Origin: Escherichia coli
GTDB taxonomy: Bacteria; Pseudomonadota; Gammaproteobacteria; Enterobacterales; Enterobacteriaceae
Strand: one strand, 5' to 3'
DNA length: 64,000 nt
NCBI RefSeq assembly: GCF_003334335.1
Contig: NZ_QOWQ01000015.1
The stretch's first letter is position 1. Every line of letters starts with the position of its first letter. Position numbers and translations under genes: made by a program. Below, one piece after another: positions 15,384-20,400 of this stretch. A model generated the notes under the pieces. That model ran no database searches. It had not been told where the DNA came from and was given only the letters and a program-made list of their open reading frames with translations.

Positions 15384-17132
15384 TCACCCCTTGTGAAGTA
15401 ACTCCATAAATGCCTCATATCCTGTTAACCCGGCAATAATCTCCGCCGGATGCTGACACAATATGCTTGCCAGATAGCTAAATATTTTTAGCTCATGACG
15501 CGCATCGGCGGCGGCGCAGGCGATCAAGACATGGTTAATGACTTCGTTATTCACCTCAACTGGTTGGGCGAGGGTAATAAAAAATCCACGAAAACGTCGC
15601 TCCTGTTCGCTCCAGCAATGTGGGATGGCGAGGCGATTAACAATCAGGTTTTCACCTTCGCCTTCGCGGGCGATGATGCGTTGTGCTTCATCGGCGGTAA
15701 TATGGTGTTGTGCGACTAATTGCGCACAAATTTGCCGGGTAATATGTTGCCAGCTTTCACCGCGTACATTCGAATAATGAAAACTTCCGGGGGCAGAGAA
15801 AAAACGCTCCGGCTGTTGGCGAATAAATGCCGTCGCCAGAAAATGTTTTATTTGTTCGATACCGGCAGCCGTAATGATATTTTTTACGGTGATGTAATTA
15901 TTTACCGCGTCATCCAGTAAATAATGGCTGTTGTTAATGATCAATAACGGCTCAATCTCTTCGCGAATGGCAACAAGTTCGCTTAAGCTACGGGCAATAA
16001 TTACCCGACAATTTAAAACATCGCGCTCAATGGCGAGCTGATTAATAGTGGCAATCGCGTTCTGGTCCGAGAGCAAAATGATCGGCTGGCGTTCGTTTTG
16101 ATGCCGCTCCAGCGCACAGGCAAAATACAAACCGATCAGATCGCTGTCGAAAAGGGGAATATCGAGCTGTTCACGCAGTAGCGTAATAAAGTGCAGACTC
16201 ATATCAAAGGCCGCAGGCCAGGCGGCTTTCAGGTTATTCATGCTGCTCTGGCGGTGCTCAGCAATCCACACTGGTGCGGCAAGGCAACGTAATAAATGCC
16301 CGGTAATATTCTCAACCAGCTGCGCATCAATAATATTCAATGACGCGATGCCCGGCACCCTTTGCAGCAACCCCTGCACATTATCGGCTGAAATTACCTG
16401 CGCTTGCTGATGCTGTTTCTCTATCAAACCCGTCAGGGTTCTTACAGCGTTATCACCAAGAAACAGACCGCTATGTTCAACGATTTGTTTTATCTCGTCA
16501 CCGGGATATTGCGGCCACTCATCGGTCAGTTGATTACGCAGGGCGTAAATCGCCAGAATCAGGCTGGAGAGATAATCACCCTGCATGAGCGGCCAGCGGT
16601 GTTGGTTGTCGCAGGCCGTGGATAAATGCTGAAGGTTGTCTCGTGTTATGCCCGCCAGCGGAATTAAAAACGGATCTTTGCGCAGCAAGTTCGCCAGCAA
16701 GATAACGCGTTTCTCTTCTGTCTCATCAATGAAATGGCCCAAACCAGGGCGGCTGGCCAGGCAACAAGTGCGTTCATAACGCTGTTTTAACCGGGGCAGA
16801 CGCTCTGCTACCCACGTTTCTGGCAAATTAAGCGCCGAGGCGAGTTGCGCACGGGGAGTGAAAGTATTCAGTAATAACAGCGCCAGCAGCCGATCGTCGT
16901 TATCGTGCTTTTGCAGCAACTGAAAAAAGCTGCGGCGCTCGAAGATTTCCAGCTGATAGCCCGCACTGCCACTGGCGAAAATGCGGGCTTTGCCGTTAAG
17001 GGTGAAGTTGAGATAGTCAATATCACGCAGGATGGTCCTGCCTGAAACGCCAGTCTGTTGCGCCAGCTCGCCAGGCGTGCGCGGCTGTTGCTCCAGCAGA
17101 TCGACAATCTTTAACTGGCGTTCGTTTAGCAT
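15384..17132 (-). CDS. frvR: Putative frv operon regulator: N-terminal HTH plus PRD/PTS-regulatory-like domains
   Basis: ORF track, 582 aa, MLNERQLKIVDLLEQQPRTPGELAQQTGVSGRTILRDIDYL…. Confidence 0.88.
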   Translation of the reverse strand: MLNERQLKIVDLLEQQPRTPGELAQQTGVSGRTILRDIDYLNFTLNGKARIFASGSAGYQLEIFERRSFFQLLQKHDNDDRLLALLLLNTFTPRAQLASALNLPETWVAERLPRLKQRYERTCCLASRPGLGHFIDETEEKRVILLANLLRKDPFLIPLAGITRDNLQHLSTACDNQHRWPLMQGDYLSSLILAIYALRNQLTDEWPQYPGDEIKQIVEHSGLFLGDNAVRTLTGLIEKQHQQAQVISADNVQGLLQRVPGIASLNIIDAQLVENITGHLLRCLAAPVWIAEHRQSSMNNLKAAWPAAFDMSLHFITLLREQLDIPLFDSDLIGLYFACALERHQNERQPIILLSDQNAIATINQLAIERDVLNCRVIIARSLSELVAIREEIEPLLIINNSHYLLDDAVNNYITVKNIITAAGIEQIKHFLATAFIRQQPERFFSAPGSFHYSNVRGESWQHITRQICAQLVAQHHITADEAQRIIAREGEGENLIVNRLAIPHCWSEQERRFRGFFITLAQPVEVNNEVINHVLIACAAADARHELKIFSYLASILCQHPAEIIAGLTGYEAFMELLHKG

Positions 17133-18202
17133 TAATCCACCTGACGGAACTGGCTAAACGCGTTGACTTTCTCCGCAGTTAAGGTCGTCAGAAAACCCCG
17201 TATCAGCGTGAGCAGAGCTTCGTAATCGGCTTTTGAAATCATACCGCTGTTGGCGTGCAGATAACGAGTTGGCAGACACAGCGCGACAACCGGACGCCCG
17301 CCGCCCATCACGTTGTAGCGCCCGCCATCCGTCGCACCGGTTTTCATGGTGGAAAATTGCAGCGGTAAATCGTTATGTGCGGCACAGCTTTTTAACGCTG
17401 CTACCAGTTTCTGGTTGGGGAAGTAGCGCTTGTCAAACAGCATCAGCCCCGGCCCCTGGCCCAGTTTCAGCGGGTATTTAATGTTATCAATGCCCGGAAC
17501 ATCGCCCGCTACGGCGGTATCCAACACGATCACGACGTCCGGTTTAATGTGTTCCGCCGAGGTTTGCGCCCCGCGTAGCCCAACTTCTTCTTCCACACTG
17601 CCAACGCCATACAGCGTAATTTCGGGATTATTCACCGTCTGCAATAGTTCAGCCATCATTGCGCAGCCGATGCGGTTATCCAACGCCTTGCCGACCACTT
17701 TATCTTCGCCCCAGCAAGCAAAATTGGCTTCCGGGCTAATAAAATTACCAATTTCCACGCCGCGCTTTTCCACCTCTTCGCGACTGTTCGCGCCAATATC
17801 AATGAACATCTCATCAAATGACAGCGGTTGTTGCTTTTGCTTTTCCGTTAACGCATGAGGCGCGACGGAACCAATCACACCAGGGATTTTCACTCCCTTG
17901 TGTGTGCGTATGGTTACCCGGTGGTTGAGCATCGACTGATTCCACCAGCCGCCAATGGTGGTAAAACGCAGAAAACCGCTCTCGTCGATGTGGGTGACCA
18001 TAAAGCCGACTTCATCCATATGTCCGACAACGGCAACTTTTGGACCTTTATTCCCCTTACGGGCAACAAAGCTGCCCAGACCATCGAAGGTGATTTCATT
18101 CACGCAAGGTTCCAGCGTGTTTATCAGAATGTCGCGAACTTCCTGTTCATCGCCGCTGACGGCGCTGGCTTCGCACAACTGTTGCAGTAACTCAATGTTC
18201 AT
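17132..18202 (-). CDS. frvX: M42-family metallopeptidase (putative aminopeptidase/endoglucanase-like) FrvX
   Basis: ORF track 17132..18208; start placed at MNIELLQQ… (356 aa); start choice between 18208 and 18202 is uncertain. Confidence 0.88.
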   Translation of the reverse strand: MNIELLQQLCEASAVSGDEQEVRDILINTLEPCVNEITFDGLGSFVARKGNKGPKVAVVGHMDEVGFMVTHIDESGFLRFTTIGGWWNQSMLNHRVTIRTHKGVKIPGVIGSVAPHALTEKQKQQPLSFDEMFIDIGANSREEVEKRGVEIGNFISPEANFACWGEDKVVGKALDNRIGCAMMAELLQTVNNPEITLYGVGSVEEEVGLRGAQTSAEHIKPDVVIVLDTAVAGDVPGIDNIKYPLKLGQGPGLMLFDKRYFPNQKLVAALKSCAAHNDLPLQFSTMKTGATDGGRYNVMGGGRPVVALCLPTRYLHANSGMISKADYEALLTLIRGFLTTLTAEKVNAFSQFRQVD

Positions 18203-19653: not shown

Positions 19654-20100
19654 TTATGAGCTGAGGGTTTGATTTAACAAGGCAAGCACCTGGTCGGTAT
19701 CGCCCTGTTGCAGTTGATGAATAAATTCCTTGTGAATAATTTTGCGACACAGTGTGCCGATGATTTTGACCTGATCCTCTTCGCCGCTTTGCGGCACGCC
19801 GAGGCAGATCCAGCAATTGACGTCTTCGCCATCGCTGGCTTTCCAGTCAATAGCCTGCGCTTTGCGGGCGAATAATACGAACGGTTGTTTAACGCAGGCG
19901 CTTTTACCGTGCGGCACGGCGACACCGGAACCAAATCCAGTAGAGTGCATTTTTTCGCGCAGCAGCAGGGTTTGCAGGAACTGGTGTGAGTCGGTGATAA
20001 AACCGTTTTGTAACGCTATTGTCGCCAACTGCTTCAGAACGGAATAAGCGCCATTGCCCTGAATATTCAGGTCAATACAGCTTGCAGTAAGAGCTGCCAT
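19654..20100 (-). CDS. frvA: PTS fructose-like EIIA component
   Basis: ORF track, 148 aa; EIIA(Fru/Mtl)-type with phosphorylatable His (AVPHG). Confidence 0.9.
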   Translation of the reverse strand: MAALTASCIDLNIQGNGAYSVLKQLATIALQNGFITDSHQFLQTLLLREKMHSTGFGSGVAVPHGKSACVKQPFVLFARKAQAIDWKASDGEDVNCWICLGVPQSGEEDQVKIIGTLCRKIIHKEFIHQLQQGDTDQVLALLNQTLSS

Positions 20101-20400
20101 TAATCGGACTCCATAAAATATATTTTAATCAATTGTAATGGTGGAGCGATTAAGTGATGAGAGGCGATATGTCGGTAAACAATGACAATTTGAGACAGAG
20201 TGAAAGGTCAGATTTGCGGAGTAATGCACATAATGGTTATTTAAATAAACCACATGAATCATTAATGGGTTATTCATTATTTTTGTGATTTACTCACAAT
20301 GTATCAGGGAAATATAACTTACCGGGAGATGTAATATGTTTAATTTTTCAAATCGAAATTTAAAATATTGTGCCGGAGGCATCTCTGGCACATTGGGCAA

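What the first reader, a model, noticed from the sequence alone, without database searches (positions are those of the whole stretch)
15384..20400. Cryptic frvABXR operon: PTS EIIA/EIIBC plus M42 peptidase plus PRD-type regulator, substrate unknown
A fructose-like PTS transporter (frvA, frvB) is co-transcribed with an M42-family metallopeptidase homolog (frvX) and a 582-aa regulator (frvR) with an N-terminal HTH and PTS-regulatory domains. A sugar PTS paired with a peptidase-fold enzyme is an unusual combination, and to my knowledge the physiological substrate is undefined. The operon is preceded by a roughly 300-bp A+T-rich region (20101-20400), suggestive of a silenced or specifically induced locus.
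Basis: partly seen in the sequence, partly recalled or inferred. Interest (0 to 1): 0.45.

Follow-up and report, generated by a model that had tools for sequence, protein, structure and literature searches.

The report
E. coli frvABXR orphan sugar-transport operon
This is the long-annotated E. coli frvABXR operon, whose substrate is still unknown; comparison with other bacteria shows that its odd sugar-transporter-plus-peptidase pairing is conserved across phyla, which suggests it imports a sugar attached to an amino acid or short peptide.

Summary
Window 15384-20400 (minus strand) holds intact, tightly coupled frvA, frvB, frvX and frvR of E. coli K-12, preceded by a 300-bp spacer of 33% G+C. 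The locus is already annotated, and I found no paper defining its substrate.

New here:
- The genes are under strong purifying selection (dN/dS 0.00-0.15). About 23% of complete E. coli genomes have lost the operon.
- FrvR is a diverged Mga/AtxA/MtlR-type regulator with PRD-like domains. This shows only at profile and fold level, not by Pfam on the sequence itself.
- FrvR-like regulators in Listeria, Enterococcus and other Firmicutes always sit with FrvA/FrvB orthologues and a MalY/PatB-type C-S lyase, and usually with an aminopeptidase (M42 or PepT-like M20). So the peptidase is an integral step.
- An inverted repeat TGTCA-N8/9-TGACA lies upstream of frvA in 29 of 29 loci. It is the probable FrvR operator.
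- K-12 lacks a RafY-type porin gene that many strains carry divergently from frvA.

Best reading (about 0.45): uptake and phosphorylation of a sugar-amino acid or sugar-peptide conjugate, trimmed in the cytoplasm by FrvX. The substrate remains unproven.

The parts
19654..20100 (-). frvA: PTS EIIA of the fructose/mannitol (EIIA-2) type, 148 aa; phosphorylatable His64 in GVAVPHG
   Evidence: ORF. NCBIfam NF007389 290 bits (cut-off 151) and TIGR00848. Aligns to PtsN/EIIA-Mtl structures with the PHG histidine conserved. Residue number.
18192..19643 (-). frvB: fused PTS EIIB-EIIC of the fructose family, 483 aa; EIIB active-site Cys13 in NCPAGIAHTYM
   Evidence: NF008493 1034 bits (cut-off 806). The EIIB domain aligns to fructose-type EIIB structures with the CP.G.AHTY motif conserved. 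77% identical to the Listeria-type orthologue.
17132..18202 (-). frvX: M42-family (clan MH) di-metal aminopeptidase homologue, 356 aa; His61, Asp175, Glu205/Glu206, Asp228 and His316 all present
   Evidence: Pfam PF05343 2e-102. NF007367 843 bits. 22 solved M42 structures match, best 1vhe at 1e-86, with the motifs GH.DEVG, DNR.GC, EEVGLRGA, D...AGD and RY.H identical. Positions; their spacing equals that of the PhTET2 ligands (own knowledge).
15384..17132 (-). frvR: 582-aa regulator with two winged-helix domains (about 1-135), two PRD-like helical domains (about 164-343, invariant His279), an EIIB-like domain without Cys (about 349-440) and an EIIA-2 domain (455-582, His505)
   Evidence: Pfam HTH_11 and PTS_EIIA_2 only. 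14 of 40 aligned relatives hit PRD, 13 hit Mga and 6 hit PTS_IIB. The family profile hits AtxA, Mga and 3sqn at 1e-12 to 1e-13 and the GlcT and BglG-family PRDs. AF2 model pLDDT 89.8. Foldseek top hits are MgaSpn, AtxA and 3sqn at E about 1e-10. Invariant residues.
20101..20400 (.). rhaM-frvA spacer, 33% G+C; the K-12-type (porin-less) haplotype. Only the roughly 132 bp next to frvA is homologous to the porin-bearing haplotype (76% identity).
   Evidence: composition; comparison with O157 and ST131; K-12-type junction in 2826 of 5426 genomes.
20170..20187 (-). Inverted repeat TGTCATTGTTTACCGACA (TGTCA-N8-cGACA), 87 nt upstream of the frvA ATG; probable FrvR operator
   Evidence: Conserved columns in the enterobacterial alignment. 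Found with at most 1 core mismatch in 29 of 29 frv-like loci from Enterobacteria and Firmicutes, against 0.011 per 250 bp in background. Binding by FrvR is inferred, not shown.
20213..20230 (-). Second conserved box TGTGCATTACTCCGCAAA (TGTG-N8-C.CAA), 43 bp upstream of the repeat; either CRP-like (7 to 9 of 10 matches to TGTGA-N6-TCACA across genera) or a second regulator site
   Evidence: Invariant TGTG and C.CAA columns in 7 enterobacterial sequences. The 40-43-bp spacing equals that of the paired repeats in Enterococcus-type loci. The assignment is an inference.
20132..20137 (-). -10-like hexamer TACAAT. The -35 position (TCATCA, 20155-20160) is poor, as expected for an activator-dependent promoter.
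   Evidence: Conserved TTA.AAT columns. The consensus scan found no sigma-70 promoter in the spacer. No transcription start was measured.
20109..20112 (-). Shine-Dalgarno GGAG, 8 nt before the frvA ATG
   Evidence: Read from the sequence; conserved in the alignment.
15356..15380 (-). 11-bp-stem hairpin 4 nt after the frvR stop, between convergent frvR and yiiG; probable bidirectional terminator or REP-like element
   Evidence: RNA fold -23 kcal/mol, z = -2.74.

Best explanation
This is the enterobacterial form of a self-contained catabolic module found in more than one phylum. FrvA (EIIA) and FrvB (EIIB-EIIC) take up a substrate and phosphorylate it on a fructose- or mannose-like sugar moiety. 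The substrate is most likely not a plain sugar but a sugar linked to an amino acid or short peptide. FrvX, a cytoplasmic M42 aminopeptidase, removes the N-terminal residue(s) of the phosphorylated conjugate. In Firmicutes a MalY/PatB-type PLP beta-lyase encoded in the same operon then cleaves the bond at the beta-carbon (C-S, possibly C-O). In E. coli that gene is absent from the operon, and MalY or MetC could act in trans. FrvR is an Mga/MtlR-type activator. It probably binds the TGTCA-N8/9-TGACA repeat just upstream of a weak -35, and is switched by PTS phosphorylation: on when HPr phosphorylates PRD His279, off when the idle FrvA/FrvB chain phosphorylates EIIA-domain His505. A CRP-like site sits further upstream.

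Shown: gene identities, intact catalytic residues, purifying selection, the conserved gene partnership and the conserved repeat.
Inferred: the nature of the substrate, FrvR binding to the repeat, and the phosphorylation logic (by analogy with B. subtilis MtlR, ManR and LicR).
For: 1. All catalytic and phospho-acceptor residues are intact, and dN/dS is 0.00-0.15 within E. coli and between genera.
2. The cassette A-BC-X-R keeps its order in four different chromosomal contexts: E. coli, Hafnia, Citrobacter/Klebsiella, and an unnamed enterobacterium.
3. The 23 Firmicute frv-like loci (18 genome loci plus 5 contigs carrying more distant FrvR homologues) each hold FrvA-like, FrvB-like (640-810 bits against E. 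coli FrvB; the Listeria protein passes the FrvB equivalog cut-off, 890 > 806) and a PatB-family C-S lyase (TIGR04350 367-387 bits, cut-off 340). 20 of the 23 also hold an N-terminal exopeptidase: M42 in Listeria (511 bits to the FrvX model), or PepT-like M20 (TIGR01883 310-324 bits, cut-off 274) in Enterococcus, Peptacetobacter, Granulicatella and Erysipelotrichaceae. Replacement of M42 by an unrelated aminopeptidase at the same step argues that the step is required.
4. No other gene family is shared by the flanks across clades, and no sugar-phosphate enzyme travels with the module.
5. A transporter, a clan-MH peptidase and PatB acting in tandem on a Cys-Gly S-conjugate is an experimentally shown pathway in Staphylococcus hominis (PMC11742315).
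6. The repeat is present upstream in 29 of 29 loci, and FrvR has the Mga/AtxA/MtlR architecture.
Against: No experiment bears on the substrate, and I could not name a specific compound. The enterobacterial operon lacks the lyase, so its chemistry may differ from the Firmicute one. FrvB is about equally similar to the fructose (FruA, 271 bits) and mannosylglycerate (MngA, 255 bits) transporters, which does not point to a conjugate. The paralogue YpdE is reported as a characterised aminopeptidase (PMC3511314; broad specificity is from my own knowledge), so FrvX might be unspecific. All loci were found through FrvR-like proteins, so the co-occurrence is conditional on the regulator. The reverse question, how many M42 genes lie next to a PTS, was not measured. 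Three Firmicute loci have no peptidase (L016, L020, L034).
Confidence: 0.45

Rival explanations
1. Frv is an ordinary PTS for a plain fructose-like sugar or polyol. FrvX is a general housekeeping aminopeptidase that merely shares the transcript, for example to couple peptide turnover to carbon supply.
For: FrvA and FrvB match fructose-family models. No dedicated sugar-phosphate enzyme is needed if the product is fructose-1-P or fructose-6-P. M42 enzymes solved so far are aminopeptidases, and YpdE is reported as a characterised aminopeptidase (PMC3511314).
Against: The peptidase step is kept across phyla and is filled by two unrelated families (M42 or PepT-like M20) in the same operon, always with a C-S lyase in Firmicutes. 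FrvX is 62% identical between E. coli and Listeria and has dN/dS of about 0.1. All three K-12 M42 paralogues are PTS-linked. That pattern is hard to explain by chance linkage.
Confidence: 0.2
2. In K-12 the operon is a decaying or transcriptionally dead remnant ('cryptic' in the strict sense). It lost its native upstream region together with the RafY-type porin gene and has no present function in this strain.
For: About 1240 of 5426 complete E. coli genomes lack frvABXR, and one strain lost it through IS1. K-12 lacks the divergent porin gene found in other strains, and only about 132 bp upstream of frvA is shared, at 76% identity. The K-12 repeat has one core mismatch. No consensus promoter was found. 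Shigella carries truncated FrvX forms of 299-302 aa.
Against: All four K-12 ORFs are full length with catalytic residues intact. dN/dS against O157 and ST131 is 0.00-0.10. Both conserved upstream boxes and the -10-like hexamer are retained in K-12. O157, which has the porin, carries the same half-site mismatch. The porin-less junction is the commonest haplotype, in 2826 genomes, not a laboratory artefact.
Confidence: 0.15
3. The Frv PTS is mainly a sensor. Its phosphorylation state controls FrvR, and perhaps the peptidase or lyase, to tune amino-acid or sulfur metabolism, without net catabolism of a transported conjugate. This would resemble the regulatory PTS-Ntr, or MalY's moonlighting on MalT.
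For: FrvA's closest solved relatives are PtsN (EIIA-Ntr) proteins. The closest solved relative of the frv-linked lyase is E. coli MalY (4e-105; 41-43% identity), annotated in K-12 as a negative regulator of MalT activity as well as a cystathionine beta-lyase.
Against: A complete, highly conserved EIIC permease (77% identity across phyla) with an intact EIIB cysteine argues for real transport. The EIIA-2 fold is shared by genuine fructose and mannitol EIIAs.
Confidence: 0.1

Closest known systems
B. subtilis MtlR / ManR / LicR: PRD-containing PTS-controlled transcriptional activators and their operons
   Same: Domain order (HTH, Mga-like wHTH, PRD, PRD, EIIB-like, EIIA-like). An operon-specific activator encoded with its PTS. 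An inverted-repeat operator just upstream of a weak -35. Features of the known systems are from my own knowledge; FrvR's architecture is and the repeat.
   Different: FrvR's PRDs are too diverged for Pfam. Only one PRD histidine (His279) is invariant. The position matching AtxA His379 is a conserved Tyr in LYF. The EIIB-like domain has no cysteine at the expected strand end (IILLSDQ; read by eye). The repeat TGTCA-N8/9-TGACA differs from the MtlR operator as I recall it.
Mga / AtxA / MgaSpn: PRD-containing virulence regulators
   Same: Best structural and profile matches over about 480 residues: two wHTH, two PRD-like domains and an EIIB-like domain.
   Different: Those proteins end after the EIIB-like domain. 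FrvR adds a C-terminal EIIA-2 domain with the conserved His505 and is encoded inside a PTS operon rather than controlling virulence genes.
E. coli fryBC-ypdFE-fryA and sgcXBCQAER operons
   Same: Each combines PTS components with an M42 paralogue of FrvX (YpdE, SgcX). The fry operon even has a second aminopeptidase, YpdF. Their substrates are also unknown (own knowledge).
   Different: Sgc uses a different EIIC family and a DeoR-type regulator. Fry has a fused EI-HPr-EIIA protein and no FrvR-type regulator (annotations). FrvX hits the second E. coli M42 equivalog far below its own (281 against 843 bits).
Staphylococcus hominis DtpT - PepV (M20) - PatB pathway for Cys-Gly-3M3SH
   Same: A transporter, then a clan-MH peptidase, then a PatB-type C-S beta-lyase acting in series on an amino-acid conjugate (PMC11742315). 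This is the same enzyme logic as the Firmicute frv-like operons.
   Different: There the transporter is a proton-coupled peptide transporter, the genes are unlinked, and the conjugate carries no sugar. In frv the transporter is a PTS, so a phosphorylatable sugar is expected, and E. coli frv has no lyase gene.
E. coli malX-malY
   Same: A PTS EIIBC gene co-transcribed with a C-S beta-lyase. MalY is the closest solved relative of the frv-linked lyases.
   Different: MalX belongs to the glucose family, the regulator is the LacI-type MalI, and there is no peptidase. A functional link between frv and malY is only a suggestion.

Membership tests
PTS fructose-family Enzyme II (EIIA-2 + EIIB-Fru + EIIC-Fru) | EIIA-2 fold with a phosphorylatable histidine | tested here: met
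   TIGR00848 147 bits (cut-off 103.5) and NF007389 290 bits. His64 in VPHG aligns with the active-site His of the PtsN/EIIA-Mtl structures.
PTS fructose-family Enzyme II (EIIA-2 + EIIB-Fru + EIIC-Fru) | EIIB-Fru domain with an N-terminal active-site cysteine, fused to an EIIC-Fru permease | tested here: met
   TIGR00829 103 bits and TIGR01427 196 bits, both above cut-off. Cys13 in NCPAGIAHTYM aligns with the CP.G.AHTY motif of five solved fructose-type EIIB domains.
PTS fructose-family Enzyme II (EIIA-2 + EIIB-Fru + EIIC-Fru) | PEP-dependent phosphorylation of fructose (or any defined sugar) | not testable with these tools
   No functional paper found. A 2023 review lists the proteins as putative.
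Peptidase family M42 (TET-type aminopeptidases) | M42 domain with the five metal ligands and the catalytic Glu | tested here: met
   PF05343 2e-102. His61, Asp175, Glu205/206, Asp228 and His316 lie in motifs identical to 1vhe.
Peptidase family M42 (TET-type aminopeptidases) | Dodecameric assembly and aminopeptidase activity | not tested
   Not modelled. Activity is not testable here. YpdE is reported as dodecameric and active (PMC3511314).
PRD-containing PTS-controlled activators (MtlR/LicR/ManR class) | N-terminal HTH followed by an Mga-like winged helix | tested here: met
   HTH_11 8e-10. Mga/HTH_Mga hits in 13 and 6 of 40 relatives. The model shows two wHTH units at 1-135. Foldseek matches MgaSpn, AtxA and AcpB.
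PRD-containing PTS-controlled activators (MtlR/LicR/ManR class) | Two PRD domains recognisable as PF00874 | tested here: inconclusive
   No PRD hit on E. coli FrvR itself. However, 14 of 40 aligned distant relatives hit PF00874. The family profile matches the GlcT PRD (3rio, 2.5e-7) and a BglG-family PRD (3gwh, 5.7e-5) over positions 217-351. The all-helical region 164-343 superposes on the PRDs of MgaSpn and AtxA.
PRD-containing PTS-controlled activators (MtlR/LicR/ManR class) | Conserved phosphorylatable histidines in the PRDs | tested here: inconclusive
   Only His279 (HL.R motif) is invariant in 40 sequences. The position matching AtxA His379 is Tyr (LYF). Phosphorylation is not testable here.
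PRD-containing PTS-controlled activators (MtlR/LicR/ManR class) | EIIB(Gat)-like domain with a phosphorylatable Cys | tested here: not met
   An EIIB-like alpha/beta domain is present (349-440 in the model; PTS_IIB hits in 6 of 40 relatives). The first strand reads IILLSDQ, and the family consensus KIILFS.Q has no Cys. In this respect it resembles Mga and AtxA.
PRD-containing PTS-controlled activators (MtlR/LicR/ManR class) | C-terminal EIIA(Mtl/Fru)-like domain with a conserved His | tested here: met
   PTS_EIIA_2 3.4e-13 at 455-560. His505 in AIPHC is at least 90% conserved, and Arg489 and Glu490 are conserved. Structural match to EIIA-Ntr and EIIA-Mtl, TM 0.7.
BglG/SacY-type PRD antiterminators | N-terminal CAT RNA-binding domain and a RAT/terminator leader | tested here: not met
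   No CAT domain; the N-terminus is HTH_11. No Rfam family matched in the frv region, and no terminator-like site was found in the leader.
AraC family (FrvR is listed there in Table 1 of PMC4797297) | C-terminal AraC-type double HTH (HTH_18 / HTH_AraC) | tested here: not met
   No AraC-type Pfam hit in FrvR or any of 40 relatives. The fold matches Mga and AtxA. The listing was seen.
H-NS-silenced A+T-rich locus | A+T-rich upstream DNA bound by H-NS, with de-repression in an hns mutant | not testable with these tools
   Only the composition could be checked: 33% G+C, 0.6th percentile. The coding region itself has ordinary composition, 50-58% G+C.

The most novel reading that the evidence does not exclude
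Frv would be the founding example of a PTS class that imports glycosylated amino acids or very short glycopeptides, with the sugar joined to the beta-carbon side chain of Cys or Ser (S- or O-linked). Such compounds could come from host, dietary or microbial glycoconjugates. The sugar is phosphorylated on entry, an aminopeptidase (M42 or PepT-like) trims the peptide, and a MalY/PatB-type lyase beta-eliminates the sugar phosphate. E. coli MalY, whose physiological substrate is also unknown, would be the missing partner in trans. FrvR would define a new branch of PRD/EIIA regulators with a cross-phylum operator, TGTCA-N8/9-TGACA.
Probability: 0.25. Interest if true: 0.7.

Novelty: already known. 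Interest (0 to 1): 0.42.

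Why it matters
E. coli K-12 still has several orphan PTS systems (frv, frw, fry, sgc) whose substrates have been unknown since genome sequencing. The pairing of M42 peptidases with these transporters has never been explained. The comparison made here turns that puzzle into concrete experiments. The peptidase step is conserved and is filled by two unrelated aminopeptidase families. A C-S lyase close to MalY always accompanies it in Firmicutes. The regulator has a recognisable operator. 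If the substrate proves to be a sugar-amino acid or sugar-peptide conjugate, that would add a new substrate class to the PTS. It would also give FrvX, and perhaps YpdE, SgcX and MalY, a physiological role, and it would identify a nutrient niche that differs between E. coli lineages, since roughly a quarter of them have lost the operon.

Tried and rejected
- Pfam on FrvR alone gave no PRD, and phmmer of FrvR against PDB sequences gave nothing. A family alignment was needed.
- The consensus promoter and terminator scan found nothing in the spacer.
- Rfam found nothing in 15384-20400, so an antiterminator or riboswitch leader was rejected.
- NCBIfam had no model for the porin; Pfam identified it.
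A 6-sequence alignment worked.
- Six full-text searches found no functional study of frv. One further search was not sent. Most 'FrvA' hits are the unrelated Listeria P-type ATPase. One pangenome paper cites that ATPase work when describing the E. coli frv cluster (PMC9205054).
- I considered that the K-12 spacer might be a remnant of the porin gene. A sensitive blastn shows no homology beyond the 132 bp next to frvA, so it is a distinct haplotype.
- I considered that the divergent PFK / PTS / aldolase operon next to frv in Citrobacter and Klebsiella might be part of the system. It is absent in E. coli, Hafnia and all Firmicute loci, and I found no second repeat near it. I treat it as a neighbour only.
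- Specific substrate guesses were considered: Amadori products, bacillithiol-like Cys-GlcN, O-mannosyl or Xyl-O-Ser peptides, and S-glycosyl cysteine. None could be supported or excluded.

Full report
**What is there.** Window 15384-20400 carries four minus-strand ORFs.
- frvA: 19654-20100, 148 aa.
- frvB: 18192-19643, 483 aa.
- frvX: 17132-18202, 356 aa.
- frvR: 15384-17132, 582 aa.

Each scores well above the curated cut-off of its own NCBIfam equivalog. The DNA is 100% identical to K-12-type E. coli chromosomes, where the genes are annotated frvA, frvB, frvX and frvR. rhaM and rhaD lie upstream on the same strand; yiiG and fdhD lie downstream and convergent.

The junctions fit translational coupling. 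The frvB ATG follows the frvA stop by 10 nt, after GGAAG. The frvX ATG lies 11 nt inside frvB. frvX and frvR overlap as TAATG. A stable hairpin follows frvR at 15356-15380. The 300-bp spacer before frvA has 33% G+C, the 0.6th percentile of 300-bp windows in the window. Co-transcription is consistent with the anatomy but was not measured.

**The proteins are intact and constrained.**
- FrvA keeps the EIIA-2 histidine, His64.
- FrvB keeps the EIIB cysteine, Cys13, in the fructose-type motif.
- FrvX keeps all M42 metal-binding motifs: His61, Asp175, Glu205/206, Asp228 and His316. They are identical to those of the solved homologue 1vhe.

Pairwise dN/dS of K-12 against O157, ST131, Citrobacter, Klebsiella and an unnamed enterobacterium is 0.00-0.15 for all four genes. 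This is not a decaying locus, although it is dispensable. A match covering at least 80% of the operon is present in about 4180 of 5426 complete E. coli genomes and absent from about 1240. Examples of loss are a clean deletion that also truncates yiiG and an IS1-associated deletion.

**FrvR.** Pfam sees only HTH_11 (5-60) and PTS_EIIA_2 (455-560) in the E. coli protein. A plain sequence search of the PDB finds nothing. The family is small: 195 representatives at E <= 1e-3 among 1.84 billion.

In an alignment of 40 members, 14 distant relatives hit Pfam PRD, 13 hit Mga and 6 hit PTS_IIB. The family profile matches AtxA (7e-13), an Enterococcus Mga-family protein (2e-12) and Mga, and over positions 217-351 it matches the PRDs of GlcT and a BglG-family protein. 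An AlphaFold model (pLDDT 89.8) shows, in order:
- two winged-helix units;
- a helical region at 164-343;
- an alpha/beta domain at 349-440;
- an EIIA fold.

Foldseek's best hits are MgaSpn, AtxA and 3sqn (E about 1e-10), plus EIIA-Ntr and EIIA-Mtl for the C-terminus. Invariant residues are His279 (HL.R) and Glu490; His505 (AIPHC) is at least 90% conserved.

So 'PRD-type regulator' holds at fold and profile level. FrvR is AtxA/Mga-like with an added EIIA domain, which is the domain order of MtlR, ManR and LicR. It differs from those in having only one conserved PRD histidine and no cysteine in the EIIB-like domain. It is not an antiterminator, since it has no CAT domain and no Rfam leader. It is not AraC-like, although one table lists it so.

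**The peptidase pairing is conserved, not accidental.** In K-12 all three M42 paralogues lie in PTS operons: sgcX-sgcBCQAER, fryB-fryC-ypdF-ypdE-fryA and frv. The frvA-B-X-R cassette keeps its order in different chromosomal settings in Hafnia, Citrobacter, Klebsiella and another enterobacterium.

Distant FrvR homologues (25-35% identity) led to Firmicute loci. These comprise five contigs and 18 genome loci: ten Listeria sensu lato species, five Enterococcus species, Peptacetobacter, Granulicatella, Stoquefichus and an Erysipelotrichaceae MAG.

Classifying their ORFs shows that every one holds an FrvA-like gene, an FrvB-like gene (640-810 bits against E. coli FrvB) and a PatB-family C-S lyase (TIGR04350, above cut-off). 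Twenty of the 23 also encode an N-terminal exopeptidase. In Listeria this is an FrvX-like M42 (511 bits to the FrvX model). In the other genera it is a PepT-like M20 (TIGR01883, above cut-off).

E. coli and Listeria proteins are 77% (FrvB), 62% (FrvX), 39% (FrvA) and 36% (FrvR) identical. No other gene family is shared by the flanks across clades.

Two unrelated aminopeptidase families fill the same slot, and a lyase is always present. Both facts argue that amide hydrolysis, and in Firmicutes beta-elimination, are steps of the pathway. The closest solved relative of the frv-linked lyase is E. coli MalY (4e-105; 41-43% identity). MalY is itself co-transcribed with a PTS gene, malX. A transporter, an M20 peptidase and PatB acting in series on a cysteine conjugate has been shown experimentally in Staphylococcus hominis (PMC11742315).

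**The upstream region.** An alignment of seven enterobacterial frvA leaders shows three conserved islands in otherwise diverged sequence.
- A TGTG-N8-C.CAA box, at K-12 20213-20230.
- An inverted repeat TGTCA-N8-TGACA, at K-12 20170-20187, with one mismatch.
- A TA.AAT hexamer, at 20132-20137.

The repeat, with a spacer of 8 or 9 and at most one core mismatch, is present within 250 bp upstream of the frvA-like gene in 29 of 29 loci from both phyla. The background rate is 0.011 per 250 bp. Enterococcus-type loci have two copies 40-42 bp apart. Because FrvR is the only regulator that travels with the module, this is most probably its operator. Binding is inferred.

The repeat's position just upstream of a poor -35, and the absence of a consensus promoter, fit an activator-dependent promoter. 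The upstream box resembles a CRP site (7 to 9 of 10 matches) but could equally be a second FrvR site.

**Strain polymorphism.** Many E. coli strains, including O157 and ST131, carry a 464-aa RafY-type glycoporin gene between rhaM and frvA, divergent from frvA (PF16966, 8.6e-153). At least 80% of the gene is present in 2557 of 5426 genomes. K-12 has a porin-less haplotype shared by 2826 genomes. Only the 132 bp next to frvA is homologous between the two haplotypes, at 76% identity. Strains without frv keep the porin, so the two are not strictly linked. The shared divergent spacer nonetheless leaves co-regulation possible.

**Literature.** Searches of the held library found no study of frv function. 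A 2023 review lists frvA and frvB as putative. An M42 paper notes that E. coli has three M42 enzymes whose roles are not understood. Pangenome work notes that frv is variably present in ST131. From my own knowledge, the operon and its composition were described in the 1990s by Reizer, Saier and colleagues, so the finding restates a known orphan system.

**Verdict.** The locus is real, correctly identified and already known. Its substrate is still open. The best-supported mechanism (about 0.45) is PTS uptake of a sugar-amino acid or sugar-peptide conjugate, cytoplasmic trimming by FrvX, and control by an MtlR-like FrvR acting at the conserved repeat. The rivals are a plain-sugar PTS with a bystander peptidase (0.2), a dead remnant in K-12 (0.15) and a mainly regulatory PTS (0.1). 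The cross-phylum module, the M42/PepT-like replacement, the MalY link and the operator are new leads that make the question testable.

Noticed in passing
L006 2040-3434 (E. coli O157); the corresponding position in the window is the spacer 20101-20400: Many E. coli strains carry a RafY-type glycoporin gene (464 aa, PF16966 8.6e-153) divergent from frvA. K-12 lacks it, and strains without frv keep it. Approximate states: porin-/frv+ 2826 genomes, porin+/frv+ about 1360, porin+/frv- about 1240.
   Followed up: partly
L008 704-5555, L010 587-5554, L003 1548-6396: In Citrobacter, Klebsiella huaxiensis and an unnamed enterobacterium, a seven-gene operon lies divergent from frvA across about 480 bp. 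It encodes a PFK-like kinase, PTS IIB, an ascorbate/galactitol-type IIC, a class II ketose-bisphosphate aldolase, an 89-aa protein, EIIA-2 and a roughly 185-aa protein. It has no regulator gene of its own. It is absent in E. coli and Hafnia.
   Followed up: partly
window 18192-19643 compared with L014 4276-5748: FrvB is 77% identical between E. coli and a Listeria-type Firmicute, and FrvX is 62% identical, whereas FrvA and FrvR in the same operons are only 39% and 36%. This means either extreme constraint on the permease or horizontal transfer followed by uneven divergence.
   Followed up: no
L040 5356-8130 (K-12 malX-malY): E. coli MalY, encoded next to the orphan PTS gene malX, is the closest solved relative (41-43% identity) of the C-S lyases in Firmicute frv-like operons. 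This is a second E. coli case of a PTS paired with an amino-acid-type enzyme.
   Followed up: partly
L014 9794-12145 and the equivalent gene in nine other Listeria-clade loci; L010 11109-18662: A polysaccharide lyase family 8 gene lies convergent, directly after the frv-like operon, in the Listeria clade. In Klebsiella huaxiensis a sigma-54/PRD-regulated mannose-type PTS with GH88 and a KdgM porin follows frvR. Both are glycosaminoglycan-degradation genes. This may be coincidence.
   Followed up: no
P0188, P0192, P0205 (Shigella dysenteriae and S. boydii): Shigella FrvX proteins are 299-302 aa (80% identity over the aligned part), which suggests truncation or deletion in Shigella lineages. Several short FrvR forms (320-448 aa) with many members may be pseudogenes or contig-end fragments.
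   Followed up: no
PMC4797297 Table 1; PMC9205054: One table lists FrvR as a characterised AraC-family factor, which neither Pfam nor the fold supports. A pangenome paper describes E. coli frvA by citing work on the unrelated Listeria FrvA iron-efflux ATPase.
   Followed up: yes
window 12459-12517 (-): Rfam SECIS_3 element (84 bits). It lies upstream of fdhD, presumably in the neighbouring formate dehydrogenase gene.
   Followed up: no
window 21596-21666 (+), 21688-21758 (+), 30603-30680 (-): Three matches to Rfam naRNA4 (REP-derived nucleoid-associated RNA). Two lie in tandem between rhaD and rhaA, just upstream of the frv neighbourhood.
   Followed up: no
window 5701-7100, 13991-14420, 39721-40130, 60571-60930: These are the only other stretches of the window with 300-bp G+C of 0.36 or lower. 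13991-14420 is the fdhD-yiiG spacer next to the frv locus.
   Followed up: no
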